Part shown: piece by piece, positions 26,801 through 39,082 of the stretch | How positions within the stretch are numbered: position 1 is the first letter of the stretch | Layout: each line of letters starts with the position of its first letter | Assembly: GCA_000004985.1 (NCBI GenBank) | Contig: GG738864.1 | Source: Naegleria gruberi | Lineage: Eukaryota | Reading direction: 5' to 3' (one strand) | Length of the DNA: 64,000 nucleotides | The notes under the pieces: model-generated | Database searches by the model: none | Seen by the model: the letters and a program-made list of their open reading frames with translations, nothing else | Told to the model about the DNA's origin: nothing | Program-made: the position numbers and the translations under genes

Positions 26801-29800
26801 TAATGGCTCAATTGAACGAAAAGGAGATTTCAAAGGTATTTATTGGATCTCACAAGGAAACTCTTAAAAGTTTGGTTCAATCCATCGAGCCAAAGGATAG
26901 TATGGTGGATGAAGAAATAACTGAACAGATGGATATTGCATTTGACAAACTTTTATGGAACATGACACCAGAAGCTGTCATTAAATCAAAGAATGAGAGA
27001 ATAATGAAGCACTACTTTGAGGGACAAGAACATTCATCATTGCCAAGTTTCTTGAATAATGTTTTTACTGATATTCAAAAATGGCAAGACAAATTTGGTG
27101 GTATTCAAGCTATTGTTACAACCTTCTCCTCATTGCTTAGTGAAGTTGAACTTCTTATTAGAGATCATGTTACTGTTGTGAAAGAAAAGCAGGTTCACTT
27201 ACAATTCCTAGAATTGCACGATATGAAGACTAGTAGTGATTTGAATACTGAATTGGATCACTTTTTCGCCTCTAACCACAAAGAGTCAATGCTTGTTCTT
27301 CTCTGTGATCCTGTAGCTGCTTCTACAAGAAGAATTCACTATGCTCAATATACATGTGAAAGTAAGAGAAATACATTCAATGCTGCTGGAACTGGTAACA
27401 TTAGACACGTCATTTTCTTGGTAAATTTATCCAGAATTCCAACAGAAAGTTCCAAGTATTCATTCGATTTTGATAGACGTTGGAATTATGTATTCATTGA
27501 TGACGTTTCTAACAGTGAACAACAACAAGGTTTCCCTGAATTGTTCGAACTTGTCAATACTCCTTTCTCAAATCTGATTAACAATACTCTTTCTGTTGAA
27601 CAAATTATTTTGGAAAATTTACACAACTCCCTTTCCAGAATAGTTTATCCATTCCCGAGATCATCTTCTCAAATTCAATCACAACTTTCCATGCTAAGGA
27701 AGTGGCTCTCTCAATCCAGTAGATATTCAGCCAGATTCACCAAACTTATCAGAGAAAAGGTTATTGATATTGTCAAACACTCAATCAAGAATGACGAACA
27801 GTGGTACCTTCAAGTGATCAATAATGACAAGAATATTTTACAAATATGTGGTACTCTTCGTTCTGCAATTCATTACTTTATTTCAAGAATTGTTTTTATG
27901 GCCTTCTCATCAATCTTGAGTGTCATGGATAGATATAATAATTTACAATTATTGGATCAAGAAAATGATTCAGAAACCCCACAATTATGGTTAGATGTTT
28001 TTGAATATGATGTTCACAGTAAGCTCTTTGAAAGTGCTGCCTTTTCAATGAACCAATCAGGCTATGTTAATATTTTGCAAGGAACTTCAAAGCACTTTGA
28101 TGCCAAATTCCCTTTCAGTTTCATTTTTGCTACAGTGGCAAACTCTTTCAGAGTGAATCACTTGGTAGATCAATTCTCCAGAGAAGATCTTGAAAAACAC
28201 TTTGAATTCACCTTGCCAAGATTCGTCAAGTATCATGCTGATATTGGAGATGAATGTATTGTGGATGACGATATTGACATGAACGACGAAGGATCAGATA
28301 AGATTCTCCTTCCTAATGACTTAGTCTCTGGCTATATCAACGATTATCACTACTTGTTTGGATCAAAGAATTGCAATATGCTTCCAAGTGAGAATGATCA
28401 ACTTGTTCTCATCCATGAACTGATTTCAAAGGACAGATTACCTGACCAGTACTATTCCTTGTTAGATTCTCAAATTTCATATTGGAACAATGAAAAGAGA
28501 GTGAAAATTTACTTCCAAGTATTTGACTCTCTGAAAGATAAGAATGTACTCGAAAAATTCTTAAACTCCATCCCATCATGTAGAACCATTGCAGAAATGG
28601 ACATGCTTCTTTGTGAATTAGTAATTGTTCACTTCAATCCAGAATATCACATTACCTTAGAAAGTGATCCTGTAGAAAACAATACTTGGGTAAGAAATGT
28701 TAGAAACATGACGGCAAGTATGACACGTCTCTTAGATTTGCTCAAGGATCCACTCATGTCGGCTGAAGTCAATGTCGACGTTGCAGAGAAATGCTCAAGC
28801 TTATCTCATCAATGGAAATGCATCAAATTCTTTGCTCACTTCCTCAAAGATCTTGTCATTAGTACTGAAAATTTGATTGACTCTGATATTACAAAGAAGT
28901 ACTGGGAAAAACTAAATGGTTCAGGAACAAGCCACTTTTACCAACCAAATGCTCTTGTGGAGTTCCTTCAAACATTGACAGACATTAACAAGAAGTGTAC
29001 TAGAGAGGAATCGTCTGAAGATTTTGAATGTTTCATTTGTCTTTCTGTTCCTGATCCTGATAGCATTAGAACAACAGTTTGCTGCAAGAGATATATCTGT
29101 TATGATTGTGCTGATGAATTTTGTCAATATCAAAAGAAATCAAAGCAATGCGGATGGTGTCAAAAAGAACTCGACAATGATGAAACTGTGGATACCTATA
29201 CTATTCCTTGTTCTAATATTTTGAAGGAAGTTGAAGATATTTCACAAAAGGAAACTCTCTTTATTGAAAAATCCACCAAGCTCATTGAAACCTTCATTAC
29301 CATGTTTTGTGTTGAAAGAGGAATTTCAGATATGCTCATTAGAGACATTATTAGTTATATTTGTGAAAACAAAAAGTTCCTTTCCGAACACAAACTCCTC
29401 AAGTTTATTCTCTCAGATTCAATGAAGAGTTCCATTATTCGAGCACTCTTCTCTTTAAAGAGAAAGGACCCTAATCAATTCGATCATGTAGCTGCTTACT
29501 TTGAAGAGAACTTGAAGGTCCTCCATACTCAATCTAAAAATGTCGACTTCCCAATTGCTGTTTCGATAAATCAAATCTTGGAGGATGAAGCAGAGTTTTA
29601 CTCACAAGACGAAGAAGGAAAGATTAATTTGGAATATATTTTACAAACCTTGTCAAGAAATGGTTTCAGCTTGGCTTTGGGTAATGATTTCGTTGGTTTC
29701 CTCAACAATACCAGTATTGCAAAAGTGGCTGTCAAGTACTTTGTGAAATTACTCCTCAACAACAAGTTATTCGATCAAAAATCTGCTAAAAAGCTTGTTG

Positions 29801-32697
29801 ACTCTGTGGGTAATCTATTCACACAAAGTGAAAACTTGATGCTCTACTTTTTGAGAGAATTGACCTCTGTTGTTGGTCTATCTGAAACTAGAGATATTAT
29901 CAATAATAGCCAGCTACTTGGAAGTATCAAGTTTATTCAACAATGGAAAGAGAAGGAAGACGTTGCTTCATTCCTCAAAGATTCTGTTTTATCATTGTCA
30001 AATCCATTCCTCAATCTTCCTTTGTACGAACAAATTTCCAAATCTATTTCTGAGATTAGACTCTCAAACACCGATACTCTATTCACAAAACTCTACACAT
30101 TCCATAGAGAACGTAATTCATTGCATCTCTTCTTAGCTGGAGTGCTTGTCGTAGTTTTGGAAGAAGTTACGCTTTCAAACAAGATGGGAACTAGAAAATT
30201 TGAAAATCTCAAAACTTGGGTAGATAGAAATCAACAATATTTCCAATTATTAGGTGGAATTTCAATTCATCCACTTCTCTCCCAATTGATTACTAATAAG
30301 GTATCTAACTTTGCAAATATTAATCCAGAAACACTGATGACACAAATTCAACAATTGAGATGTATCATTCATTTAATGTTCATGATATTCACCAATTCAC
30401 AATCACTGGGGTTCTTCAGTGCATGCTTGTTGAGCCCTCAGAATTTGTTGAATAACATGTTCCCAACCATGAACGATGATGTCATGTCAGGATTGAGTAG
30501 TATCACCAATGGTAGAATTTATCAATGTCCATCTGGTCACTTGTACATTATCACAGAATGTGGAAGAGCTGCAACAACAGGACGCTGTCCAGAATGTGGA
30601 CAAGAGATTGGAGGATCCAACCATAACCTACTCAATACAAATAGAGAATACTTTGCCAATGACCAATCAGCTCCAACTAATCTCTGTCGTAGAAATGCTA
30701 CAGAAGAAAGTGGACCAGCAGATGTGTACTTGAGCCAGAGAAGTCTCTCACCAATTGAGGTTAGATTTATCAGATTAGTTATGAGTGGATTATTGTTTGC
30801 ATCCAGCTCATTCCTTGGTAAGGATTGTGCAATGATTATCAACACTAGATATGCCAATCCAAGAGATGTTTCTTCCTTCTTCTTTGAACACTTTATCAAT
30901 GATTGGAATATACTCTCTAGACTGTTATCAAAGAATGACGAACAAGTAAGCATTATCGTTCACAATCTCATTACGAGAATGACTTTATCAAATGTGGTGT
31001 TGGATAATCAATTGATGGTCAAGACATCTCGAGAAAATTTTGAAAGATTGTTGAGTGAAACCATCTTGCAAGGTGCTCTCAAGAGTGATAAAATTATGCA
31101 AGAAGTGGAAAACATGATTAGAAATCACCAAACTTCAGTAGAAGGAAGAAATAATCACAAGAATGAAAAGCTTTCACATGCCATTCAGTTTACAGAAATT
31201 GCAGACAGGGATGTAGTGAAACTTCAACCTTCTCTGTTTATGAAATTGGAAAATATCACTTTTGATCACTTTTCAAATACATTCAAACAATCCAAGAATG
31301 ATTATCCAATTCTAAGCACAGTCATTGAGGAAATTGTATCACTACAAGCCCTTCAATATTTACCAGATATTTTCAAAATGTACGTTGAAGTTTGCAAGAG
31401 ATGTGACAAGAAATTGAGAAAAGAGCAAACTATAGAACAAAATATTGGACAATTCATTAATGATATTCAAGATCCTATCGAGAGAGAAAATCTTGCTATT
31501 CACTTTGATGGTTTTGCTAGAGCATGGAATATGGTTTTCAAATATGTGGAAATGTATGAATGTTTGGTTATTCCTGAACAAATGAAAACTATTAGAATGG
31601 GACTGGATAAACCATTAGTATTCATTCTTCCACACGAGAAGGATGAATCCATTTTTGGAATTGCATTAACCCACTATCTCATTGGTATTCATAACAAGTT
31701 TGTTAAACTTACCAATAGTGCAGAAACAGATGTGAGAGTTATTTCTAGCTCTGATTTGGATACTTCTCTAGCATTCAAGTTTAGTTTGAAAGAAGATTTA
31801 ATGCCTTTCGTGAGAGATCACTGTAGAAGACCTATTTCATTTAAATCCACAGACTCGATCAAGTATGACTTTGAGTTTATTCAACAACACGTTGTGGATC
31901 ATTTCTTATCCGGCAAACCACTTGTAGAAATCAAGATCAAGATGATTGAACTAATGGGAGAATTGAGAGCTTCTGGTGCAAAGGAAAGATTTACCAACCT
32001 CAAGAAGACCAACAAGAATTCCAAGAAGGAAGGATCTGACAAGTTCACTGACGAGGAAAGAATTACTATTTTGAATGAACTTGGAGGAATTAATGGAAGA
32101 TCAGATCGGTGTGTCAAATGTTTTAGAATGGTAGAAATGGCTATCCATTTCATTCAAGCCAATACTGTCTCTGTTAGCTCTCTTTCTTCAAACATTTTAG
32201 AAAAACCACTTGTTCAATATTTGGAAAAAGATTTGATGATGACAGGAGCCAGACAACTCTTCGGTGCTTCATTGTCCTCCATGATACGTATCAAACATTT
32301 GGATAATTTATGGGAATTATTGGAATCACATCTCACTGTTGATTCATTCTCTTCAGTTCATGCAAATTACAGAAAGGAATTGAGCAAAGATTTGGAACAA
32401 ATCCTCCTCACAAAGGTTGCTCCTAAAATTGATCTTAAAGTTTTCTTGTCAGCCCTTAAAGAAGCAATTCAAACTCACTTGACAGAACCGTACTCGGACA
32501 TGAACCAAGATTTAAAACAATGGCTTTCCTATTTACCTATTCCAGATAATTTTGTTCAAGGTACTGGTGAGCATGCCAATTCTGAATTGGAAACAATTTC
32601 TGACTTTACATGGTTTAAACATGTTCCAGATAATTTGTTTACCTTGGCAATGGCTTTGGAGGTTTTCAAAACATTGGAGACTTTGGTAAAACAATAA
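17836..32697 (+). CDS. RNF213 (mysterin)-like giant E3 ubiquitin ligase / dynein-like AAA+ ATPase, 4953 aa, single exon
   Basis: Two AAA modules carry canonical motifs: Walker A GESGGGKTY at about aa 2218 with Walker B VAFIDE, and Walker A GYPGTCKSL at about aa 2570 with Walker B VVLLDE. An earlier degenerate P-loop MAGCGKSH is present. A RING-like finger lies at about aa 3733 (CFICLSVPDPDSIRTTVCCKRYICYDCADEFCQYQKKSKQCGWCQKEL). An RZ-type zinc finger lies at about aa 4228 (YQCPSGHLYIITECGRAATTGRCPECGQEIGG). Domain order and spacing parallel human RNF213 (AAA3/AAA4 Walker motifs at about 2420/2770, RING about 4000, RZ about 4490). The N-terminus is Asn/Ser/Gln-rich and low-complexity. Confidence 0.85.
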   Translation: MLSDQDYQKHKRRKEEEEKKRKEREDESSLPSSSSNSTPQQYEHQTLNNNIVIIDGDDTDSNDAVIITSPTIQEQQTAKFGFLVNSQEDNNNSSSSPHVTGSSNKKRKTTSHSPLTTNISPIKQEEDMSSTVPPNQQEQTANNNMVMMDNNNSNEKPSTPKQGTTTTNSDEDDVIMIESNEATLSPSLLHKMQGSLKIEESQQQEQTNTSASTTTIPSSSELSDNNDTSSKPSEENDQQQQQEGTNNNNTVLLNSVKTITENTGVRIVVHAFIPPQYTDDLQPALRYSYKEITGSGKNKKEEVKKVDIPLGHTPVEGLDIWFCVVKLPLQVDFVSFKIIVRDESKAIHTDKEVRSITLPKYTTPAVHHIYINFNPKSEKRQGILDMFKTKLSMTETFLTELFTPSKIDTGDLLPSDTENNVFENLIRINRKRIQIFHSRLDGFMQSMAHLSDLNFYTKIHIKQNYTSTNRHNLKSPYVYEDTKKFLLSLPEKIIQDKTDFELKLIMTLVFFEKIYSISGHNDKKNFDEMIDLLKELDVYTLNTIFHHILKKEAEKSTPINLIRDSFRNSIQALINVFSATTNDKRKFSYWIMAAPFISLELKFHGSTSPLDMLIMQSDKKRFDTEFATLTSIVEEKRALISNRSHVVSGTDIGIIFSTIFKMASSLNDINCILTLTSDMQSNEGRFRSFTTQLCEFISNMDSWEDSDFDSFTYLLENHSYVLSSTSMLASYFKNKALSEVSHYHSENILKHLLMFLENEEFVANNKEKDLISLSKLIANFFSTLFGKKKSSYNLFKKSVYSMKDIVAFYSKLAESLSKTCMNDYQLIIIESISNNSSFTSSGSDPYSRITSLIEICEEFELDERATLGNILAQLTLDTVKSLGVSNKVINKLLDTVSRFYADSIDITIDVVSKKVLMYIIETLSEGSSMTIEILFKHHLLWSRLFQLNDIFTDKKLIEGVQLVDKFSQQINNHTIALNDLRIILRDDNQDRFVSLATYSGVSVISKNTLIDIDFQVQYFETLLKQCHDFCNHYCQHDNVNNEFRLLLEKIEAEIQNNAVFSSINSSFNNFAFLKELPTLQHLCKSELFLQFWNETIDQMVESLVTETESTSKIIFTINDLKSRVYPQVVQKWLQLYNNLNMKTISFLELQTLFSDNTEEETFQDMLFLKRTCQSTDNMLDGDATQFHLINENNQSYIQWSREHAQLISSFLTIVKQKEYIPMIVSILSKFNSNFSTSVFTDSYYVKIEKIHKYILEKWESGNLFDIVDMVNEAKSALQHLGKNELLLIEFLNESDDLLNWLWQHNDSSQFNELIRVCREVTDDAIILQSFASLTSAREYLYELVYPSRKFTSCESFLRAINTANLNKDDTEIQRRLTDCKVIRSNLENVKQVFKEKTRSPSVTAVLKLLEIISGATISVTTINSISEDNYIICNVKGKITHLSDLIDIRTTVLNTTIPNELKEKHINLDAAIDTFCKLVNILSSMKRTLIELGINGSMIVDNYEFTITLNVDNLEYLLFQFMEEEKRLSEMNSNWKLTIKNIRLEYNLLNYFNMRELRKLIKWLDMIKEGNSIVGERVYSMLKIIDNNLTLQQYKSFEKEWIDYDIMVDDDIQLISLGSCLNSHFNLIEDSHEQIDFLPSSDLGMSTMNVEKNNSKQNLIVIACQNDQEVESIVYSLYAVKSILPQVEEVLMCRPNTDFEDIELVVRRWSKSEHKKQIFTLANIQHLDYTLQCKVVDMLKNYLQTSTTLATLAIVSSTQQQRIINAFSNFRFDGSPLSSEDLKDSLLQIAKPGKFSSGVNVYTSPMAGCGKSHTIFERSHIEKKKLVYISLRESVNITELINQLNEKTRNSQPVTLHFNIAPNVDTIVNSILFELIVIGSLRDHQCNVYHRRPIDSIAIEIPNQVGNRTLVRSVPFCKYLPRVECIVSAHTLSIERKYEIGTNGSVMVSNNRKLKYVCSLLLAHQNGVFVNNNGTDFVNFTPNMDNMNKEECLTILTRYCNAGGQISYALINNFVEFTFEFFENMMDYEVLRFLPSLDPGFATLPQSIVGMILEMSKDFAIRQLVFNFNTDNPSLEEYSNRFSSIRKWEESSHPVIIFTKETFQCNGFNVISLDQSSVNRFFPEHLRALLHEQGININFDFKKTVEEKGQRAAELEGLKFLQMISGSFSLDEEMGEIMKIMLISKLDETDYVLTQDNLMKMIAIIYRFKSNLPVILHGESGGGKTYLISHLCKFLDYQLYRMTLHGGNTEQDIFNFLNNIVIEANSHAMATYVAFIDECNTCSAMAIVKEVVCDGLLNGVKIPENVKIVAALNPYRLKNEKAKQLEQSIQSQTGIIYKHPSFANIPDPLENLVYRVHPLPDSFVDHLYDFGSLSDGVERLYIGSMLRQSLKKYLKADENGKITNETVRQAVNFFESLIHASQVFIRQTMHEESSVSLRDVRRCIQVFYWLVEEYHNPTSVFRDVLNLDHHHGNEIFNTHNKHFKNYVMLSLSFAFYSRLNRQERSGYLRYLSKECPTIVPSEFEKLLTKYQTKLTEQMNISEGIALNEALTENIFVLFLALVNHIPLLIQGYPGTCKSLAVDLISKSMRGKASNNKQLQHLPDINIFAFQCSPLSEAKSIAQTFRAARQYAKESSGSSSLSVVLLDEIGLAADSPKLPLKILHQELENTAEISVVSISNYSLDSSKMNRMCVLYRSTPSAKDLKDTAKGIMRFHKSFKLQSYLEPIATSYLELYKNQRIKQFFGLRDFYNLVKFLYRIINNKMTYHGRPIEFEKSLVLSVLRNFGGIPSEDMDNVLKIFERNTGIKFTEYEKPNSCNLLRLNLKDSADARHLLVLTNNNSALNLLFDYEILSLSSTIVLFGSDFPDEKNDNFSLSLQLQKIKLAMSEGNTVVLVHCDSLYESLYDLLNQHYVVVENKKFSRLAFGNSSVTCPVHDNFRIIIIAEASDAYTKLAIPFLNRMEKHVILRDDMMNEDNTNLHSQLSAFVEKLMAQLNEKEISKVFIGSHKETLKSLVQSIEPKDSMVDEEITEQMDIAFDKLLWNMTPEAVIKSKNERIMKHYFEGQEHSSLPSFLNNVFTDIQKWQDKFGGIQAIVTTFSSLLSEVELLIRDHVTVVKEKQVHLQFLELHDMKTSSDLNTELDHFFASNHKESMLVLLCDPVAASTRRIHYAQYTCESKRNTFNAAGTGNIRHVIFLVNLSRIPTESSKYSFDFDRRWNYVFIDDVSNSEQQQGFPELFELVNTPFSNLINNTLSVEQIILENLHNSLSRIVYPFPRSSSQIQSQLSMLRKWLSQSSRYSARFTKLIREKVIDIVKHSIKNDEQWYLQVINNDKNILQICGTLRSAIHYFISRIVFMAFSSILSVMDRYNNLQLLDQENDSETPQLWLDVFEYDVHSKLFESAAFSMNQSGYVNILQGTSKHFDAKFPFSFIFATVANSFRVNHLVDQFSREDLEKHFEFTLPRFVKYHADIGDECIVDDDIDMNDEGSDKILLPNDLVSGYINDYHYLFGSKNCNMLPSENDQLVLIHELISKDRLPDQYYSLLDSQISYWNNEKRVKIYFQVFDSLKDKNVLEKFLNSIPSCRTIAEMDMLLCELVIVHFNPEYHITLESDPVENNTWVRNVRNMTASMTRLLDLLKDPLMSAEVNVDVAEKCSSLSHQWKCIKFFAHFLKDLVISTENLIDSDITKKYWEKLNGSGTSHFYQPNALVEFLQTLTDINKKCTREESSEDFECFICLSVPDPDSIRTTVCCKRYICYDCADEFCQYQKKSKQCGWCQKELDNDETVDTYTIPCSNILKEVEDISQKETLFIEKSTKLIETFITMFCVERGISDMLIRDIISYICENKKFLSEHKLLKFILSDSMKSSIIRALFSLKRKDPNQFDHVAAYFEENLKVLHTQSKNVDFPIAVSINQILEDEAEFYSQDEEGKINLEYILQTLSRNGFSLALGNDFVGFLNNTSIAKVAVKYFVKLLLNNKLFDQKSAKKLVDSVGNLFTQSENLMLYFLRELTSVVGLSETRDIINNSQLLGSIKFIQQWKEKEDVASFLKDSVLSLSNPFLNLPLYEQISKSISEIRLSNTDTLFTKLYTFHRERNSLHLFLAGVLVVVLEEVTLSNKMGTRKFENLKTWVDRNQQYFQLLGGISIHPLLSQLITNKVSNFANINPETLMTQIQQLRCIIHLMFMIFTNSQSLGFFSACLLSPQNLLNNMFPTMNDDVMSGLSSITNGRIYQCPSGHLYIITECGRAATTGRCPECGQEIGGSNHNLLNTNREYFANDQSAPTNLCRRNATEESGPADVYLSQRSLSPIEVRFIRLVMSGLLFASSSFLGKDCAMIINTRYANPRDVSSFFFEHFINDWNILSRLLSKNDEQVSIIVHNLITRMTLSNVVLDNQLMVKTSRENFERLLSETILQGALKSDKIMQEVENMIRNHQTSVEGRNNHKNEKLSHAIQFTEIADRDVVKLQPSLFMKLENITFDHFSNTFKQSKNDYPILSTVIEEIVSLQALQYLPDIFKMYVEVCKRCDKKLRKEQTIEQNIGQFINDIQDPIERENLAIHFDGFARAWNMVFKYVEMYECLVIPEQMKTIRMGLDKPLVFILPHEKDESIFGIALTHYLIGIHNKFVKLTNSAETDVRVISSSDLDTSLAFKFSLKEDLMPFVRDHCRRPISFKSTDSIKYDFEFIQQHVVDHFLSGKPLVEIKIKMIELMGELRASGAKERFTNLKKTNKNSKKEGSDKFTDEERITILNELGGINGRSDRCVKCFRMVEMAIHFIQANTVSVSSLSSNILEKPLVQYLEKDLMMTGARQLFGASLSSMIRIKHLDNLWELLESHLTVDSFSSVHANYRKELSKDLEQILLTKVAPKIDLKVFLSALKEAIQTHLTEPYSDMNQDLKQWLSYLPIPDNFVQGTGEHANSELETISDFTWFKHVPDNLFTLAMALEVFKTLETLVKQ

Positions 32698-32737: not shown

Positions 32738-35299
32738 CTAAACGAGTTTATAATACTTGACTTCTGACATCATTACTTCAAAAATTTCTCTTGCAATGAG
32801 GTTACTAGTTGAAGTGTAAGTGAAAATCCAAACACGAGCATTTCGTTCTACCAAGTAACATACTTTCTTCAATGTATGTCCAGAGTAGGTTGTTGAGGCT
32901 AGCTCTACAATTTTTGCCTTCAGAGTTGGGACTTCACCCTCTGTTGAATCCACTTCAGAGTTTGATTGTTGAGAGTAGAGTGAAACTTCATAATCTACAT
33001 TCTTTACAGAAACAATTGTGCACGTCTTGAGAACTTGCTCCTTGAAAGTGGTGGAGTAAAATTGTTCAAGCAAGCTTCCACTATTTTCCATTGACACTCC
33101 TGTGAAGTTTGAAGCTTGTGCTCCATAATCTTCTATTCTATTCTTGTAGGTAGTATTTCCAAAATTTACATAGGTCACAAAAACATTTTCCAATGTTTCT
33201 CTAGATCTTGTTTGGTTTGGATTCTTGTTGGCAAGATATTGAATAGGATGATAGAGAATGAGTTTGTAATCCTGAGATCTCTTTCCAAAATCACCAACGC
33301 CAAAGTGTCGCACCATTTCATCCTCTCCAGAACAAGCATCTGCCTCTATTCTAAGTGATGGAATAAAGCACATTGGTACAGACAATACAATACCATCCCC
33401 GTCCAAATTTGAGGTCTTTCTCTTGAGATCAGAAATGGATTTGACTGTGAAAAATTCCTTTACAAGAATGTCAATCCAAGCAGCACCATCAATTGGTGGA
33501 ATATTGTTATTACTATACACGAGATTACTACTGAATATTTCTGCTGCATCCTCATCTTCGAACATGGAACCTCCAATACTTGAAAATGCAGCTGAGAGTC
33601 TCTTTTTCATCTTTTTAGAATTGTTTTGTGCAATGGTGTTTGAATTTTTTCTCTTGGAAATGATATCATTATTAGGAGAGGTACAATCTGCTGTTTTATC
33701 AACAGAATCCACAAGACCTGAAGTATTAGATGAAGAACGGCTGAGATTTCCACTATTTCTATTGGATGATGGAGGACTCACTGTTAATTTGGAAATGTCA
33801 TCATGATTAGTTGATGTTGGAGGTGTACCATTTCCATTATTGAATAATTCCTGTTGAATATTAATCGAAGGAATCAACAAGCCCTTTGTTGGTACAGTTA
33901 AATTCAATGAATATCCCAGAATATTCTCAGATTCCCTCCTTGTTGTTGTTAGCATTAAACAATACAATAATCCATTAGAATCTTGAATAAAGTAAATCTT
34001 CTTGTACAATAATTTCTGTGGTAACAATTCATGGTGAAATTGAATAATAAAGTAGAGAGCCTTCTTCTCTGGTTGAATATGTTTATCCACCACATGAGTA
34101 ATTCCCTTCACTAATTTTGGTTCGAGCATTGTTGAATGACTACTAGAGGATGACGATGAAGGAGATGATGGAGAAGGTGAAGCAGCAACAACAGAAACTT
34201 GTCTCATCATACTCGATGAAGGTGTTCTATGTAAATTATTATTACCACCCGAAGAAGAACAAGAATTTGATGAATCATAATTCCTCGACAATTCTTGAAT
34301 ATCTTCAATGGCCAACTGGGCCTCCTTCTCAATACTATGTGGTGAGAAGGTTACATAAATCTCCAGGAAATCCTTCTCAAAGTTTCTATCATAGCTGGAG
34401 AAGAAGATTTTTTGTTGAATATTGTTATTTGTGTTGCTCGTTGTTGTTGTGGCGCCATTTTGTTGTTGAGAATTTACTTGGGTCGTAGATAATTGGTTAT
34501 TATTGGCGGGAGAATTTGTTAAAGAATTTGTGTTCACTGGTGTTGGAGGTTGAAGGCTTGCTGATGATGGTGAAGAAGATGATGACGATGATGATGATGA
34601 TGGTGGAGATTGGCTTATATTAATATTATTATTATTATTACTATTATTTACATTATTTAATTGTTGTTGTTGTGGGGAATAATTAGAAATATTATTGCTA
34701 TTACTACTTCCATATTGAAGTAATTGTACTTTCCAATCGTGAGGTAAATAGACAGAGTAGTATAATTCGGTAATTAATTGGAGAGATTCCACTGATTGGA
34801 GTTGAATAGGAATGATCGTATGATCTGATGATGACGAGGAAATCATTGATGATGTATGATGATGAAAAGTACTTCCACCACTACTCGAATATTGATGATG
34901 AACAAAAGTACCACTACTTCCATTACTAGTAGATGGTTGATGATGGTAATTAATATTATTATTATTTGAAGAGGATGATGAGGTACCAATCATGAGTGGT
35001 GAATTACTTCTCGAGGTATTGAGTGGATCGCCACTTCTTGGAGTTTCGGCTACTTGATTCGAATTTGTCATGGTGGTAACAGCTACTTGATTGGTGCCTG
35101 TGAGGAAATTCATTCGACCACGACTGAATTTTCTGCCACTATTTGATGGTGATGATGAATTACTGTTACTACCTCCATTATTCGAAACATTGCTTGGGTA
35201 GTGCATGGATACGGATGATTTGCTGTCTTCATCTCGAGATCCTGAAGAAACGTTTCCCATGAGTTGTTTGTGATGAGTTGATAATAGGAAAGATGGCAA
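32738..35299 (-). CDS. hypothetical Ser/Asn/Gln-rich low-complexity protein, 853 aa
   Basis: A long ORF. The likely true start is the internal MGNVSSGS (an N-myristoylation-type MGxxxS) at about 35260. It has extensive poly-S/N/Q stretches and a structured C-terminal roughly 150 aa (VCYLVERNARVWIFTYTSTSNLIAREIFEVMM). Confidence 0.55.
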   Translation of the reverse strand: MPSFLLSTHHKQLMGNVSSGSRDEDSKSSVSMHYPSNVSNNGGSNSNSSSPSNSGRKFSRGRMNFLTGTNQVAVTTMTNSNQVAETPRSGDPLNTSRSNSPLMIGTSSSSSNNNNINYHHQPSTSNGSSGTFVHHQYSSSGGSTFHHHTSSMISSSSSDHTIIPIQLQSVESLQLITELYYSVYLPHDWKVQLLQYGSSNSNNISNYSPQQQQLNNVNNSNNNNNINISQSPPSSSSSSSSSSPSSASLQPPTPVNTNSLTNSPANNNQLSTTQVNSQQQNGATTTTSNTNNNIQQKIFFSSYDRNFEKDFLEIYVTFSPHSIEKEAQLAIEDIQELSRNYDSSNSCSSSGGNNNLHRTPSSSMMRQVSVVAASPSPSSPSSSSSSSHSTMLEPKLVKGITHVVDKHIQPEKKALYFIIQFHHELLPQKLLYKKIYFIQDSNGLLYCLMLTTTRRESENILGYSLNLTVPTKGLLIPSINIQQELFNNGNGTPPTSTNHDDISKLTVSPPSSNRNSGNLSRSSSNTSGLVDSVDKTADCTSPNNDIISKRKNSNTIAQNNSKKMKKRLSAAFSSIGGSMFEDEDAAEIFSSNLVYSNNNIPPIDGAAWIDILVKEFFTVKSISDLKRKTSNLDGDGIVLSVPMCFIPSLRIEADACSGEDEMVRHFGVGDFGKRSQDYKLILYHPIQYLANKNPNQTRSRETLENVFVTYVNFGNTTYKNRIEDYGAQASNFTGVSMENSGSLLEQFYSTTFKEQVLKTCTIVSVKNVDYEVSLYSQQSNSEVDSTEGEVPTLKAKIVELASTTYSGHTLKKVCYLVERNARVWIFTYTSTSNLIAREIFEVMMSEVKYYKLV

Positions 35300-35435
35300 G
35301 GGAAACGATGCTTTCTGTTGCCAGTTTAGAGAAGCTTTTTTTTGCTGTTGTCACATAATTGGAGATTGATGACAGATAGCATGGAATTGGCATACATGAC
35401 AGTACGTTAACAAATAAGGTGGACAAGAGAACCTT

Positions 35436-35750
35436 TAGTTTTTAATTATGCATAGCACTCAACCAAGATTTTTCACATTATAATTTTGTCTAAAACGAGA
35501 AGACTCTAGTTGATTGTAAGCAGATTGGTTTTTTCATCTGAAAGAATGAATCAAAGAATGAATTGATAGTCTTCTTTTGGTTTAGAAAAGGTCATTAATG
35601 AACTTCGAAATGTTTTAATGAATTGTAATGGCAACATTAGGTTCGTTTAGTTTAAAATGAAAAGAACCATGCATCAAATAAGATCACGTTATGAAGTCAC
35701 ATACAGTTGTTGCTCAAAATATTTTGAATCACGTTCTGAAAAACTCCAGT
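35436..35750 (+). repeat. direct repeat copy A (about 315 bp), paired with 36595..36862
   Basis: It shares about 80-85% identity with copy B, with indels. Shared blocks include TTAGTTTTTAAT(T/A)ATGCATAGCA, AATGAATTGTAATGGCAACATT and AATGAAAAGAACCA..CATCAAATAAGATCACGTTATGAAGTCACAT...GTTGTTGCTCAAAATATTTTGAATCACGTTCTGAAAA. Confidence 0.8.
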
Positions 35751-35923
35751 AAATAAATTCTATTATTTCTATATCCAAAAGGAATAATTTTTTAGATATT
35801 TAATATTATTGACATGTACATTGATTATGGATTTATAGAATCGTTTCACAATTGTGTATTACGCATAATAGTATTTAATAGTATTATGAAATTCCTAATA
35901 TTAAAAAATTATTAAAATAAAAA

Positions 35924-36478
35924 ATGTCGCAAGATGAAGAACAAATTCCTTGTCCTTTAGATTTCTCTTTCAAATCATCACTACTCATTCAAAAATTCGA
36001 AACGGAACATTGTAAACAACTCAGAGAATTAACCTTGGTTGTGATCGGAGCCTTTAGGAAACAATCAGATAATATGAGCAACAATTTTACAAAGTTTATG
36101 GTTGCATGTTTGGATAAATCAAGTGGAAAGTACTTTTCTGTTTGTATGGTCGGAACTGGATTCACTCAAGAATTAAGAGAGGACCTTTCGAGTAGATTAT
36201 CTCAATTGATTATTCCAGAACCATTGGAAAATTATGTTTTCAATAAGGATCAAATGGCAGAGGTATGGTTTCGACCAGTTACAATATTTGAAATTCAAGT
36301 GGCTGATATTTGTCTATCTGGTATTCATAAGGCCGGTTTTGGAGTGTTTAAGGAGGGAAGTGGTTTAGGATTGAGATTTCCAAGATTTGTTAAGGAAAGA
36401 AAATTTATGAAGCCAGAGGATATTACTACTGTGGATGAATTAATTAAATTGTACAAAATAATGAATAATTATTATTAA
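35924..36478 (+). CDS. stand-alone ATP-dependent DNA ligase (ligase I/III-type) C-terminal OB-fold domain fragment, 184 aa; possible captured gene fragment or pseudogene-derived ORF
   Basis: LTLVVIGAFRKQ ... FMVACLDKSSGKYFSVCMVGTGFTQELREDL ... AEVWFRPVTIFEIQVADICLS ... GLGLRFPRFVKERKFMKPEDITTVDELIKLY matches the C-terminal OB domain of eukaryotic DNA ligase I (DLVVIGAY..GKR.G..G.FLLA.YD......VCK.GTGFSDE ... ISLRFPRFIR.R.DK..E.ATT..QVA.LY). There is no adenylation domain (KxDGxR) and no upstream exon. The first 30 aa are unrelated to ligase. Confidence 0.7.
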   Translation: MSQDEEQIPCPLDFSFKSSLLIQKFETEHCKQLRELTLVVIGAFRKQSDNMSNNFTKFMVACLDKSSGKYFSVCMVGTGFTQELREDLSSRLSQLIIPEPLENYVFNKDQMAEVWFRPVTIFEIQVADICLSGIHKAGFGVFKEGSGLGLRFPRFVKERKFMKPEDITTVDELIKLYKIMNNYY

Positions 36479-36594
36479 TTATTATTAATTATTTATATAT
36501 AGTATTAATAATTATAAAATTAATTTGGTGAGTTTACAAAGGGAAATTATCCTTTTTATTAAGGTGATTTTCAAATTTTGGATTGACCTTCTGT

Positions 36595-36862
36595 TAGTTT
36601 TTAATAATGCATAGCATCTTTTCACATTAGTTGTGTCTAAAAAGAGAAAACGCTTGCTGAATGTTTAGTTGATTGTAAAGCATTGGAGAAAATGAATTGG
36701 CAGAAAAGTACACAAATGAACCTCAACTTGTTAATGAATTGTAATGGCAACATTTCACGTTTCCTTTACAATGAAAAGAACCAATCATCAAATAAGATCA
36801 CGTTATGAAGTCACATCTCGTTGTTGCTCAAAATATTTTGAATCACGTTCTGAAAACTATTT
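36595..36862 (+). repeat. direct repeat copy B (about 270 bp), paired with 35436..35750
   Basis: See copy A. Copy B overlaps the 5' end of ORF 36744..37379; the homologous frame in copy A is closed by a stop. Confidence 0.8.
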
Positions 36863-37379
36863 ATTGAAAGCTCTCCAATCCCAAACAACCAACTCATCAA
36901 AAAAACAAAACAATTCAAAATACTTACAAAAATTGAAACTCAATTGCAAGATGAAGAATTTAGCAACACCTATGGTTGAACCATGTTATTTCTTTTTCAA
37001 TGGAGGTTGTTATAGACCTTGCGGTCATTCTCACTGTCCACCTCAACACGAATTGGCAATTTGGAAACAAATTTGGGCTAAAAGAAACTCAAAGAAACAA
37101 AAATACCAAACCGGTGTTTCCAATGAAGAAATGGAATATTTCAAGAAGAAGATGAGAGAGTATTTGGAACAACAAGAAGAAATGAATATGAAAATCAGAA
37201 TGCAATCCAGAGAAATTGAAAGACAACACGATACTATCAATGCCATGAAATGTCAAAGATCATCATTGATTGCTGCTCAATCACCAGTAACTGTTAATAA
37301 TAATTATGTAAATGTTGTGAATGTTCCAGAAAATGGTAATTTCAGAATTAGAACCACTCATACCAGATATTTGCAATAG
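36744..37379 (+). CDS. hypothetical protein with CCCH-like zinc finger and coiled coil
   Basis: The ORF starts at 36744 inside repeat B. The functional start may be the downstream MKNLATPMVEP at about 36950. The finger is CYFFFNGGCYRPCGHSH (C-x7-C-x3-C-x3-H, CCCH-like). It is followed by a charged coiled coil (EEMEYFKKKMREYLEQQEEMNMKIRMQSREIERQ). Confidence 0.5.
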   Translation: MATFHVSFTMKRTNHQIRSRYEVTSRCCSKYFESRSENYLLKALQSQTTNSSKKQNNSKYLQKLKLNCKMKNLATPMVEPCYFFFNGGCYRPCGHSHCPPQHELAIWKQIWAKRNSKKQKYQTGVSNEEMEYFKKKMREYLEQQEEMNMKIRMQSREIERQHDTINAMKCQRSSLIAAQSPVTVNNNYVNVVNVPENGNFRIRTTHTRYLQ

Positions 37380-37546
37380 ATAGACAAGAAATTTCCAAAT
37401 ATGTAAATTGAAAAAAATGTAAAAAAACAAAAAAATGTAAAAACAAACAAAATTAATAAAAATAATTTCAAAAAATTTCTTTATTCAACTTTTTCACAAA
37501 CATTAAAAACTCTTCACACTATTCTCTTCTATTTTTCTATTATTAT

Positions 37547-39082
37547 TTAAAAAGGATTTCTTTGATTGAAAATTTGTGGTTGATAATTCAAATGATATGG
37601 ATAGTATTGAGTTGGATGTTGTCCGTAATAGAGAGTTCTCTGTCTAATTGGAATGTGATGATTATTGGCAGGAATATGTGGCATGTAAAAGACAGGAGCT
37701 GCTTCAGTATTATCAGCTGCATGCAAACTTCTAACTTGTGGTTGACCAGTTTGTTGTTGAGGAGGAGCTCCTTGTTGTTGTTGTTGACCTTGGGCAGGAG
37801 CTTGTTGTGGAGGAGGACCCATTGGTTGACCACCTTGTTGTGGTTGACCACCTTGTTGTTGCTGTTGTTGTTGTTGAGGAACAGGTAATGGTTGTTCTTG
37901 ACCTCCACTAATACAGAAAACTTCACTCTTAGCCAAACATCTAACATTAAAAGGTCCAACAAAGACTGGATTCACACAAATAAAATAGGAACATCCCGGA
38001 GTTGTTTGTAAAGCTCCGCCCCACATGATAATGAATGGAATTTTACCACTTCTTGGTGGAGCTGCAGCTTGTTGATTGACATTAATTAATCTGACATCAT
38101 CTACAACATATTCTCTGTTTTGATCTCTGATTTGGAATACACTGACTGAGAATTGATCGAAATTGAAATTTTCAGAGAATTCCAAGAATTGAGTTGTGTT
38201 GAATTGCCATTGAGCATTAGCAACTGGTTGACTAATGTTGAAACTACCAGATGATAATGAAAACATGCCTGATTTGGCAAAACAGACACCTTCATCAGCT
38301 TGATTAGTTTGGTTATTACTCTTTGGATCAACTCCTGCTTCATTCGAAACTAACTCTGCACACAAGTAATACATGTTACCATATTTGACATCTGGCATTG
38401 TTGGAACCAGATATGATAACTCACCAAATGGCTTACTCTTATCAAGAATATATGAATTCTTTGAGTTTTCTACTTGAGTATCAGCTTGTTGACCACCATT
38501 CTTCCACAAACTAATGGAAATTGAAATTGAACCCTGAGCACCATTTTCAACACCATTTCCAAAGAATTGACTATATACAACTGAGTAGTTTTGGCCAGTG
38601 AACCATTTGGTATATTGTTGTGGATAATCCAATGTCAAGTAAGGTCTTCTTGGAGCTCCACCAGAGTTGACCAAATCTGGATTGTAAGAACAATAGAAAC
38701 CACCAACTGCATAACAATCAGTAGAGTGAGTAATTGAGGTATTAGTAGGATTGAGACATGCATAATAGGAACAGCTTTGAGTTGCATTCACTGGAATGAC
38801 CCAAGGGACGTAACCAGAAGCTCCTGGAATGTTAACTTCACTTGTCATGACTAATTCATCAGCTTGATCTTGTCTTTGTCTGTACAGTGTGAGTGTTGCA
38901 TTTTGTCCACTCAAGACTCCACCACCAATGTAGAGTAAGGGAAGGACACGACCTGTCGGAAGAACTGCGGTGTTATCCGGGATAATTACATACAAGGCAG
39001 TGGTGGTGAGGGAAATTGCCAATATATAGAAAAGTGCAAGTAGCAAAATTGAATAGCTATACTTCATTCGATTGTTGTTCAT
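37547..39082 (-). CDS. secreted protein with Gln/Pro-rich C-terminal tail, 511 aa
   Basis: An N-terminal signal/anchor (YSILLLALFYILAISLTTTALYVI) is followed by a Cys-containing globular region. The tail is low-complexity (QQQQQQQQGGQPQQGGQPMGPPPQQAPAQGQQQQQGAPPQQQTGQ). Confidence 0.6.
   Translation of the reverse strand: MNNNRMKYSYSILLLALFYILAISLTTTALYVIIPDNTAVLPTGRVLPLLYIGGGVLSGQNATLTLYRQRQDQADELVMTSEVNIPGASGYVPWVIPVNATQSCSYYACLNPTNTSITHSTDCYAVGGFYCSYNPDLVNSGGAPRRPYLTLDYPQQYTKWFTGQNYSVVYSQFFGNGVENGAQGSISISISLWKNGGQQADTQVENSKNSYILDKSKPFGELSYLVPTMPDVKYGNMYYLCAELVSNEAGVDPKSNNQTNQADEGVCFAKSGMFSLSSGSFNISQPVANAQWQFNTTQFLEFSENFNFDQFSVSVFQIRDQNREYVVDDVRLINVNQQAAAPPRSGKIPFIIMWGGALQTTPGCSYFICVNPVFVGPFNVRCLAKSEVFCISGGQEQPLPVPQQQQQQQQGGQPQQGGQPMGPPPQQAPAQGQQQQQGAPPQQQTGQPQVRSLHAADNTEAAPVFYMPHIPANNHHIPIRQRTLYYGQHPTQYYPYHLNYQPQIFNQRNPF

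What the first reader, a model, noticed from the sequence alone, without database searches (positions are those of the whole stretch)
35436..36862. Intact ORF encoding only the DNA-ligase C-terminal OB-fold, bracketed by about 300-bp direct repeats that also copy the 5' end of the neighbouring gene
ORF 35924..36478 has its own ATG and stop. Residues about 30-184 are an unmistakable ligase I/III OB domain (VCMVGTGFT ... LRFPRFVKERKFMKPEDITTVDELIKLY). The adenylation and DNA-binding domains are absent, and no upstream exon is evident. The 1.1-kb block sits between direct repeats A (35436..35750) and B (36595..36862). Repeat B supplies the 5' end of the next gene (36744..37379); the same frame in repeat A is stop-interrupted. 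This looks like a segmental duplication or transposition event that captured a ligase gene fragment. It could be a decaying pseudogene. Alternatively the OB domain is a newly exapted small protein, possibly a dominant-negative or ligase-interacting factor.
Basis: partly seen in the sequence, partly recalled or inferred. Interest (0 to 1): 0.6.

Follow-up and report, generated by a model that had tools for sequence, protein, structure and literature searches.

The report
Free-standing DNA-ligase OB-domain gene in Naegleria
This is an already annotated but unstudied Naegleria gruberi gene, one of two old paralogues that encode only the C-terminal DNA-binding (OB) domain of DNA ligase I. It has lost residues needed for ligase chemistry, and the 0.3-kb repeats around it are a local duplication of upstream non-coding DNA, not a mobile element that captured it.

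Summary
ORF 35924..36478 (184 aa) is intact, and residues 36-179 are a DNA ligase I-type OB domain (Pfam PF04679; AF2 model 1.8 Å rmsd from the human LIG1 OB domain). No adenylation or DNA-binding-domain sequence exists anywhere in the 64-kb window. Direct repeats 35435-35742 and 36594-36856 are real, with only two copies in the window.

The interpretation needs correcting. The window is Naegleria gruberi and the ORF is gene NAEGRDRAFT_66795. It is not a recent capture. It is at most 39% identical to any ligase among 1.8 billion representatives. It has a 45-50% identical paralogue on another scaffold (NAEGRDRAFT_74433) with the same non-ligase N-terminus, so truncation predates an old duplication and the reading frame has persisted.

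The fold core and LRFPRF are kept. The GxGKR loop and the near-invariant D-K of motif VI are lost. This points to a non-catalytic OB protein, probably DNA-binding (inferred).

The annotated neighbouring gene starts at 36951, downstream of repeat B. Both repeats therefore lie 5' of adjacent same-strand genes and look like duplicated promoter or 5'UTR DNA. No LTR/TIR hallmarks and no RNA signal were found.

Expression, genome-wide repeat copy number and the host LIG1 comparison could not be tested.

The parts
35435..35742 (+). Direct repeat A. It lies in the divergent intergenic region between the 853-aa minus-strand gene and the OB gene.
   Evidence: Identity to repeat B is 82% without gaps and 72% with gaps (E 1e-45). 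Identity is uneven: first 26 nt 96%, middle 69%, last 130 nt 91%.
35657..35752 (+). 31-codon ORF inside repeat A (MKRTMHQIRSRYEVTYSCCSKYFESRSEKLQ*), the counterpart of the unannotated N-terminal extension of the next gene. Probably not coding.
   Evidence: translation. All three codon differences from repeat B are non-synonymous (read). No protein in the database shares this peptide apart from the neighbour gene's own cluster.
35743..35923 (+). AT-rich spacer between repeat A and the start codon, presumed promoter or 5'UTR. It holds an in-frame TAA at 35918-35920.
   Evidence: sequence. Only weak colinear similarity to the spacer after repeat B.
35924..36478 (+). Gene NAEGRDRAFT_66795 (XP_002677864.1, D2VDC5), 184 aa: a free-standing DNA ligase I-type OB-domain protein.
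   Evidence: 100% identity to the N. gruberi predicted protein..
35924..36028 (+). Family-specific N-terminal 35 aa (MSQDEEQIPCPLDFSFKSSLLIQKFETEHCKQLRE). It is shared with paralogue NAEGRDRAFT_74433 and has no ligase adenylation domain. The model is low-confidence, with a helix at aa 18-32.
   Evidence: conserved M1 S2 E5 E6 C10 L12 D13 K17 S18 L21 I22 Q23. (pLDDT about 50).
36029..36460 (+). OB-fold domain, aa 36-179.
36371..36412 (+). Degenerate motif VI, aa 150-163 (LRFPRFVKERKFMK). LRFPRF and R159 are kept. The near-invariant D and K (RxDK) are replaced by F161 and M162.
   Evidence: D is 96% and K 98% conserved in 142 ligase OB domains.
36059..36097 (+). Replaced GxGKR loop, aa 46-58 (KQSDNMSNNFTKF). 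The glycines and arginine conserved in ligases are lost in both paralogues, which share the derived NNFT[KR]F.
36594..36856 (+). Direct repeat B, upstream of the annotated start of the next gene.
   Evidence: It is 100% identical in a second N. gruberi-like allele, L001.
36951..37379 (+). Annotated CDS of NAEGRDRAFT_66796 (142 aa): an orphan protein with a Cys/His cluster (CYFFFNGGCYRPCGHSHC). The longest ORF extends upstream to 36744, into repeat B.
   Evidence: No Pfam hit.

Best explanation
ORF 35924..36478 is a real, old gene of Naegleria gruberi (NAEGRDRAFT_66795). It is one of two paralogues that encode only a DNA ligase I-type OB domain behind a short family-specific N-terminus.

Proposed history (inferred). 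A single ancient 5' truncation of a LIG1-type gene left the C-terminal domain with a new start. That truncated gene later duplicated to a second locus. Both copies then diverged to 45-50% identity while this copy kept its reading frame.

Proposed function (inferred). The protein keeps the OB fold core and the LRFPRF segment, whose phenylalanine wedges into the DNA minor groove in LIG1. It has lost the GxGKR loop and the D-K of motif VI, which ligases need for self-adenylylation. It therefore cannot act as, or complete, a ligase in the usual way. Most likely it works as a small non-catalytic OB protein that binds DNA (nicked or duplex) or a ligase or replication partner.

The repeats. The roughly 0.3-kb direct repeats are a separate, younger local duplication of upstream non-coding DNA. 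One copy now lies 5' of the OB gene and the other 5' of the next same-strand gene. They are most simply a duplicated promoter or 5'UTR segment, and their well-conserved ends suggest constraint or gene conversion.

Shown: organism, gene identity, domain content, absence of other ligase domains, the paralogue, the residue losses, repeat boundaries and the annotated start of the neighbour.
Inferred: selection on the ORF, DNA binding, and a regulatory role for the repeats.
For: - Identity: 100% match to an N. gruberi predicted protein.
- OB domain.
- No other ligase domains in 64 kb.
- Paralogue NAEGRDRAFT_74433 lies on a different scaffold and shares the start MSxxEE, the N-terminal region and the derived motifs NNFT[KR]F, GFTQEL and LIIPxP.
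- A profile of the two paralogues scores them at 385 and 250 bits, then drops to 88 bits for ordinary ligase fragments.
- All ligases are at most 39% identical. Median identity to other OB domains is 31%, against 43.5% among ligase OB domains themselves.
- The best hits are taxonomically scattered: a streptophyte alga, fungi, Entamoeba, insects, a dictyostelid and Monocercomonoides.
- The chance of 184 stop-free codons at this base composition is about 1e-7. GC1>GC2>GC3 resembles that of the neighbouring genes.
- The role of motif VI in step 1 and of the OB phenylalanine in DNA distortion is taken from PMC7470946.
- The OB part has pI 8.5.
- Repeats. The neighbour's annotated start at 36951 is.
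- No Rfam hit and no folding signal in the repeats.
Against: - No evidence of transcription or translation was available, and no paper mentions either locus tag or accession.
- No orthologue was found outside N. gruberi in protein or metagenome searches.
- The paralogue's gene model stops after 127 aa and lacks the C-terminal half of the OB fold. That copy may be decaying or may hold an unmodelled intron.
- Many near-invariant ligase residues are lost, which would also be expected under relaxed constraint.
- The regulatory role of the repeats is pure inference.
Confidence: 0.55

Rival explanations
1. Non-functional relic. The ORF is a leftover fragment of a dead ligase paralogue that an ab initio gene caller annotated. 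Its open frame is residual, and it is neither expressed nor selected.
For: - It is lineage-restricted, with no orthologues.
- The paralogue model is truncated at 127 aa.
- It has lost near-invariant residues, including the D-K of motif VI and the GxGKR loop.
- There is no literature or expression evidence.
Against: - Both paralogues keep the same start and a recognisably conserved non-ligase N-terminus at 45-50% identity. The truncated form has therefore survived a long divergence.
- A 184-codon stop-free frame has a probability of about 1e-7 at this composition.
- The fold core is fully retained and the model is confident.
- Codon-position GC resembles that of the neighbouring genes.
Confidence: 0.27
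2. A recent segmental duplication or transposition, marked by the 0.3-kb direct repeats, captured the 3' part of the host DNA ligase I gene.
For: - Direct repeats do bracket the ORF.
- The OB domain is the C-terminal domain of LIG1, so a partial 3' copy would look like this.
Against: - No ligase in 1.8 billion representatives exceeds 39% identity.
- A paralogue with the same truncation and N-terminus exists on another scaffold, so the truncation predates the repeats (JC distance about 0.2).
- The repeats lie 5' of two genes rather than at the edges of a recognisable inserted unit, and no short target-site duplication flanks them.
Confidence: 0.05
3. The repeats are the terminal repeats of a mobile element (an LTR/TRIM-like or other non-autonomous element) whose internal region carries the ligase fragment.
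For: Two same-orientation repeats of 260-310 nt lie about 850 nt apart.
Against: - The repeat ends are TTAG...GAAAA, not TG...CA, and no flanking target-site duplication is visible.
- There is no gag, pol or transposase-like ORF.
- No third copy occurs in 64 kb, and JGI metagenomes give no match.
- Divergence is patchy (96%, 69%, 91%), unlike that of uniformly ageing LTRs.
- Repeat B is the immediate 5' flank of a separate gene.
Confidence: 0.05
4. The ORF is the last exon of a larger, normal ligase gene whose upstream exons were missed.
For: N. gruberi has introns. Weak profile similarity reaches back to about aa 21-24 in a few hits.
Against: - A full-length LIG1 profile finds nothing else in any frame of the 64-kb window.
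- An in-frame stop lies two codons before the ATG.
- An 853-aa gene on the opposite strand occupies the upstream 2.5 kb.
- The paralogue starts at the same methionine.
Confidence: 0.02

Closest known systems
OB-fold domain of eukaryotic/archaeal ATP-dependent DNA ligase I (Pfam PF04679, e.g. human LIG1 residues about 750-900)
   Same: - Same fold: 1.8-1.9 Å rmsd over 145 residues and 32% identity.
- Retained residues: G79, F80, W115, E123, S132, G147, LRFPRF and R159.
- It scores better against LIG1 than against LIG3, LIG4 or archaeal ligases.
   Different: - It is not attached to an adenylation or DNA-binding domain.
- It has lost the GxGKR loop and the D-K of motif VI.
- It carries a 35-aa family-specific N-terminus.
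- It is more divergent than ligase OB domains are from each other (31% against 43.5% median identity).
NAEGRDRAFT_74433 (XP_002670507.1, D2VZB6), N. gruberi predicted protein
   Same: It is the only true family member found. It is 45-50% identical, with the same start, N-terminal region and derived motifs.
   Different: Its model is 127 aa and ends after the 'VWF' strand, so the C-terminal half of the OB fold and motif VI are missing. It lies on a different scaffold. Its DNA and flanks could not be examined.
Short 'OB-only' ligase entries in metagenome protein sets (e.g. P0018, P0034, P0048, P0049)
   Same: They have a similar length and contain only PF04679.
   Different: They begin inside the end of the adenylation domain (…WLKLKKDY…) and keep GxGKR and RxDK. 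They are cut gene calls of ordinary ligases, not a free-standing family.
Minimal two-domain ligases (Chlorella virus ligase, bacterial Lig E, Lig C)
   Same: They show that ligase modules can be pared down. In them the OB domain is a DNA minor-groove binder and a step-1 helper (PMC7470946).
   Different: They always keep the nucleotidyltransferase domain. This gene has none, so it cannot be a ligase.

Membership tests
ATP-dependent DNA ligase (functional enzyme, LIG1 type) | Nucleotidyltransferase/adenylation domain with the motif I lysine (PF01068) | tested here: not met
   Pfam finds only PF04679. The LIG1 profile matches only positions 554-694 of 717, and nothing else in six frames of 64 kb. 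tblastn gives the same result.
ATP-dependent DNA ligase (functional enzyme, LIG1 type) | N-terminal alpha-helical DNA-binding domain (PF04675) | tested here: not met
ATP-dependent DNA ligase (functional enzyme, LIG1 type) | Intact motif VI (LRFPRFxRxRxDK) in the OB domain | tested here: not met
   LRFPRF and R159 are present, but D becomes F161 and K becomes M162. These columns are 96% and 98% conserved in 142 ligases.
DNA_ligase_A_C OB-fold domain family (PF04679) | Sequence match above the Pfam gathering score | tested here: met
   59.5 bits against a cutoff of 27.5, E 4e-16.
DNA_ligase_A_C OB-fold domain family (PF04679) | OB beta-barrel with flanking helices that superposes on solved ligase OB domains | tested here: met
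   AF2 pLDDT above 90 for aa 33-183. Foldseek to human LIG1 gives E 3.5e-16 and rmsd 1.8-2.1 Å.
DNA_ligase_A_C OB-fold domain family (PF04679) | DNA binding by the free domain | not testable with these tools
   Only indirect evidence: the LRFPRF phenylalanine is retained and the OB part has pI 8.5.
LTR / terminal-repeat mobile element | Terminal repeats ending TG...CA, with a short target-site duplication outside them | tested here: not met
   The repeats run TTAGTTTTTAAT...CGTTCTGAAAA. The flanks (…gagaacct / ctatttat…) do not match.
LTR / terminal-repeat mobile element | Multiple dispersed copies in the genome | tested here: inconclusive
   Only two copies in the 64-kb window and none in JGI metagenomes.
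Processed (5'-truncated) retrocopy | Poly(A) tract after the 3'UTR and short flanking target-site duplications | tested here: not met
   The downstream sequence is AT-rich but has no poly(A) run and no short duplication. An ancient origin of this kind cannot be excluded.
Pseudogene | Frameshifts or premature stops relative to the parent domain | tested here: not met
   The alignment to LIG1 OB domains is continuous from aa 36 to 179, with no stop or frameshift. The paralogue's model, however, is truncated.
Structured non-coding RNA gene (for the repeats) | Match to a known RNA family, or a fold more stable than shuffled sequence | tested here: not met
   No Rfam hit at E up to 1. Folding z-scores range from -0.9 to +0.7 on both strands.

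The most novel reading that the evidence does not exclude
A ligase OB domain has been domesticated in the N. gruberi lineage as an independent, non-catalytic factor. It could be a nick or minor-groove DNA binder, or a decoy that competes with LIG1 for nicked DNA or for a partner. The duplicated 0.3-kb upstream element would then put it under the same control as the neighbouring Cys/His-cluster gene.
Probability: 0.15. Interest if true: 0.55.

Novelty: new variant of a known kind. Interest (0 to 1): 0.35.

Why it matters
If the protein is made, it would be an unusual example of the C-terminal OB module of a replicative DNA ligase surviving on its own as a gene family after losing its catalytic partner domains and its adenylylation residues. 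It would be a natural separation-of-function version of the domain, with DNA contact kept and step-1 chemistry lost. That could inform how the OB domain recognises DNA by itself.

The practical weight is modest. The family is confined to one species as far as the databases show, it has no expression evidence, and the gene is already in public annotation as a 'predicted protein'. The repeat finding mainly corrects the idea of a capture event.

Tried and rejected
- Upstream ligase exons. tblastn with ligase fragments carrying motif V and a 717-position LIG1 profile against all six frames of the window found nothing beyond the ORF.
- Retrieving the genomic context from public assemblies. Neither P0001 nor P0010 is on record in the look-up of encoding contigs. 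The paralogue's DNA, its flanks and dN/dS were therefore out of reach.
- Finding N. gruberi's own LIG1. 22 of the best full-length hits were looked up by name and none is from Naegleria. The hits are scattered across eukaryotes. The direct parent comparison is therefore missing. What is shown is only that no representative exceeds 39% identity.
- Further family members. These were sought with an exhaustive phmmer search, a two-sequence profile and a metagenome DNA scan. None was found.
- Further copies of the repeat. These were sought by window searches and a JGI metagenome scan with a 25-mer. None was found.
- Repeats as an RNA gene. Rfam and folding z-scores give no support.
- Repeat-encoded peptide as a real exon. 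No other protein shares it, and all three codon differences between the copies are non-synonymous. Rejected as coding evidence.
- Splicing of the 31-codon ORF in repeat A to the OB ORF. One GT..AG pair was checked by hand: a possible donor at 35749 (CA|GTAAAT) and the nearest acceptor inside the ORF (35932-35933). It is out of frame. The TAA at 35918 blocks any acceptor upstream of the ATG. No systematic search of donor/acceptor combinations was run, and the idea was not pursued.
- PIP box in the N-terminus. QIPCPLDF does not fit Qxx[LIM]xx[FY][FY] and is not conserved in the paralogue.
- Literature. Nothing was found on the locus tags or accessions. A search for N. gruberi, DNA ligase and OB-fold returned four papers. 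The one read (PMC7470946) mentions Naegleria only for its RNA ligase and has no occurrence of 'stand-alone', 'standalone', 'in trans' or 'isolated OB'.
Full report
**What the window is.** The ORF at 35924..36478 is 100% identical over its full length to a 'predicted protein' of Naegleria gruberi on a 442-kb scaffold. Its identifiers are NAEGRDRAFT_66795, XP_002677864.1 and UniProt D2VDC5. Window GC is 32-35%. The neighbours are ordinary host genes. They include a 4953-aa RNF213-like ORF, a BBE-domain protein and a short-chain dehydrogenase fusion. Nothing suggests a viral or transposon island.

**Checking the ORF.**
- The ORF is 184 aa with its own ATG and stop. An in-frame TAA lies two codons upstream of the ATG.
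- Pfam finds only PF04679 (DNA_ligase_A_C) at aa 53-160, E 4e-16.
- phmmer against PDB sequences aligns aa 36-179 to the OB domain of human DNA ligase 1 at E 7e-20. Archaeal ligases score next.
- An AlphaFold2 model built with 34 aligned sequences has mean pLDDT 87.9, and above 90 for aa 33-183. It superposes on the OB domain of human LIG1 crystal structures at 1.8-2.1 Å over about 145 residues.
- The first 30 residues are low-confidence apart from a predicted helix at aa 18-32.

**Absence of the rest of a ligase.**
- tblastn with metagenomic ligase fragments that include motif V and the WLKLKKDY linker hits only 36029-36460.
- I built a 717-position profile from 102 full-length ligases and searched every stop-to-stop segment of all six frames. 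It hits the ORF at profile positions 554-694 (E 4e-44). The next best hit has E 3.4.
- The 2.5 kb upstream is occupied by an 853-aa gene on the opposite strand.
- The 'missed upstream exons' explanation is therefore excluded for this window.

**Age and relatives.** An exhaustive HMMER search of 1.84 billion representative proteins gave one hit below 1e-30, the protein itself. All full-length ligases are 27-39% identical. The 22 best hits that I could name are scattered across eukaryotes and unnamed metagenome proteins. Named ones include Spirogloea, zygomycete fungi, Tieghemostelium, Entamoeba, Hymenoptera, Hanseniaspora and Monocercomonoides. The domain is of the eukaryotic LIG1 type but has no close parent. 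Its median identity to other OB domains is 31%, against 43.5% among those domains themselves.

The one exception in the list is P0010, 127 aa and 45-50% identical. Its alignment starts at residue 2 of both proteins. It is another N. gruberi predicted protein, NAEGRDRAFT_74433 (XP_002670507.1), on a different 233-kb scaffold. The two proteins share several features that ligases lack:
- the start, MS(Q/E)(D/S)EE;
- a conserved cysteine, and LD, KS and LIQ in the non-ligase N-terminus;
- the derived motifs NNFT[KR]F, GFTQEL and LIIPxP.

A profile of the pair scores them at 385 and 250 bits. It then drops to 88 bits for ordinary ligase fragments that cover only the OB part. A metagenome DNA scan found no further relatives.

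It follows that the truncation to an OB-only gene happened once, before these paralogues separated. The truncated form has since diverged by about half of its residues.

**Gene or relic?**
- In favour of a maintained gene:
 - The frame is intact across 184 codons. The chance of no stop at this base composition is about 1e-7.
 - The novel N-terminus is conserved between the paralogues.
 - The fold core is fully retained.
 - Codon-position GC resembles that of the neighbouring genes.
- Against:
 - There is no orthologue outside N. gruberi.
 - The paralogue's model ends after the 'VWF' strand.
 - No expression data or literature exists for either locus.
- I could not obtain the paralogue's DNA, so dN/dS is untested.
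- I put roughly 0.55-0.6 on a maintained gene and about 0.27 on a relic.

**What the sequence says about function.** I compared the protein with 142 ligase OB domains at columns at least 75% conserved.
- Kept: G79, F80, W115, E123, S132, G147, L150-R-F-P-R-F155 and R159.
- Lost:
 - the D of the DxLDL entry strand;
 - both glycines and the arginine of the GxGKR loop (also lost in the paralogue);
 - K75;
 - P133;
 - the D and K of motif VI, where RxDK becomes R-K-F-M. These two columns are 96% and 98% conserved.

According to the review PMC7470946, motif VI of the OB domain is required for step 1, ligase self-adenylylation. The OB domain binds the DNA backbone on its concave face and inserts into the minor groove, where a pair of conserved phenylalanines distorts the nick. 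Solved F872 mutants of human LIG1 appear among the matches. By my own numbering from the alignment, F872 is the first phenylalanine of LRFPRF. That placement is an inference.

The pattern of keeping the fold and the DNA-contact segment while losing the adenylylation residues and an inter-domain loop fits a non-catalytic OB protein that still binds DNA. The OB part has pI 8.5. This functional reading is inferred and not shown. A decoy or partner-binding role is equally compatible.

**The repeats.** They are real. Repeat A is 35435-35742 and repeat B is 36594-36856, in direct orientation. They are 82% identical in aligned columns and 72% counting gaps, with blastn E 1e-45. The 30- and 37-nt cores occur exactly twice in the window, against zero expected.

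Identity along the repeat is strikingly uneven:

| Part of the repeat | Identity (aligned columns) |
|---|---|
| First 26 nt | 96% |
| Middle, about 150 columns | 69% (51% counting gaps) |
| Last 130 nt | 91% |

Overall aligned divergence is about 0.2 substitutions per site. If the DNA is roughly neutral, that is far younger than the split between the paralogues.

The annotated protein NAEGRDRAFT_66796 has 142 aa and starts at ATG 36951, about 95 nt after the repeat. No other protein in the database shares the repeat-encoded peptide. The three codon differences between the copies are all non-synonymous. In repeat A the corresponding frame is open for 31 codons from ATG 35657 and ends in a TAA at 35750, just past the end of the repeat.

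A 99%-identical allele from an ENA metagenome (L001) keeps repeat B unchanged while the coding region carries several changes.

Each repeat thus lies upstream of a small same-strand gene, about 180 nt before one ATG and about 95 nt before the other. After the repeats there is only weak colinear similarity. It ends in a shared GCAAGATGAAGAA around both start regions, at E 0.013, which is not robust.

There is no Rfam match and no folding signal. The repeats have no TG...CA ends, no flanking target-site duplication and no element-type ORFs. A JGI metagenome scan found no copy.

The simplest reading is a local duplication of about 0.3 kb of promoter or 5'UTR DNA, with constraint or gene conversion on its ends. 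Genome-wide copy number could not be checked.

**Comparison with what is known.** The domain is a member of PF04679 by sequence and by fold. The protein is not a DNA ligase, because three defining features (nucleotidyltransferase domain, DNA-binding domain, intact motif VI) were tested and not met. Short 'OB-only' entries in metagenome protein sets start inside the adenylation domain and keep GxGKR and RxDK. They are cut gene calls, not relatives of this family. The ligase review I read does not use the terms 'stand-alone', 'standalone', 'in trans' or 'isolated OB'. From my own knowledge, no free-standing LIG1-type OB gene family has been characterised. I therefore rate it a new variant of a known kind. 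It is already present in public annotation as an uncharacterised protein.

**Verdict.** The proposed mechanism, a recent capture by the event that made the repeats, is not supported. What is there is an old, species-restricted, two-member family of OB-only ligase derivatives, plus an unrelated, younger duplication of upstream DNA. Interest is moderate to low (0.35). It is a tidy example of domain survival with a suggestive pattern of residue loss, but it has no functional or expression evidence and a narrow distribution.

Noticed in passing
window 17836..32697 (+): A single uninterrupted 4953-aa ORF with an RZ-type zinc finger (PF20173, E 4e-20) and dynein-like AAA hits. It is an RNF213/mysterin-like giant protein encoded without introns.
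   Followed up: partly
window 35903..35941 and 36918..36958: The start regions of the OB gene and of NAEGRDRAFT_66796 share GCAAGATGAAGAA (13 of 13). In the neighbour it contains the annotated ATG. In the OB gene the embedded ATG is out of frame. This may be a trace that the duplication once extended to the start codon, but the E value is only 0.013.
   Followed up: partly
window 35435..35742 vs 36594..36856: Identity along the repeat is very uneven: 96% in the first 26 nt, 69% in the middle and 91% in the last 130 nt. This suggests constrained blocks or partial gene conversion rather than uniform decay.
   Followed up: partly
window 36951..37379 (+), NAEGRDRAFT_66796: An orphan 142-aa protein with a Cys/His cluster, CYFFFNGGCYRPCGHSHC (C-x7-C-x3-C-x3-H, CCCH-like). 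It has no Pfam hit and no homologue outside N. gruberi. In the ENA allele the Y inside the cluster is N.
   Followed up: partly
L001 1..976 (ENA ERZ929261, contig k127_46639) = window 36562..37540: A 'metagenome' contig about 99% identical to this N. gruberi locus, so the sample contains N. gruberi-like DNA. The contig breaks just upstream of repeat B.
   Followed up: no
window 32738..35299 (-) and 37547..39082 (-): The two flanking minus-strand genes (853 aa and 511 aa) are rich in Ser/Asn/Gln/Pro low-complexity runs and have no Pfam domain. The 853-aa ORF probably starts at the MGNVSS methionine near 35260 rather than at the TTG listed.
   Followed up: no
paralogue P0010 (NAEGRDRAFT_74433), not in the window: Its gene model ends at 127 aa, right after the conserved VWF strand, with an unrelated tail (ANYSLGSKSC). 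This points either to an unmodelled intron or to a decaying copy.
   Followed up: no
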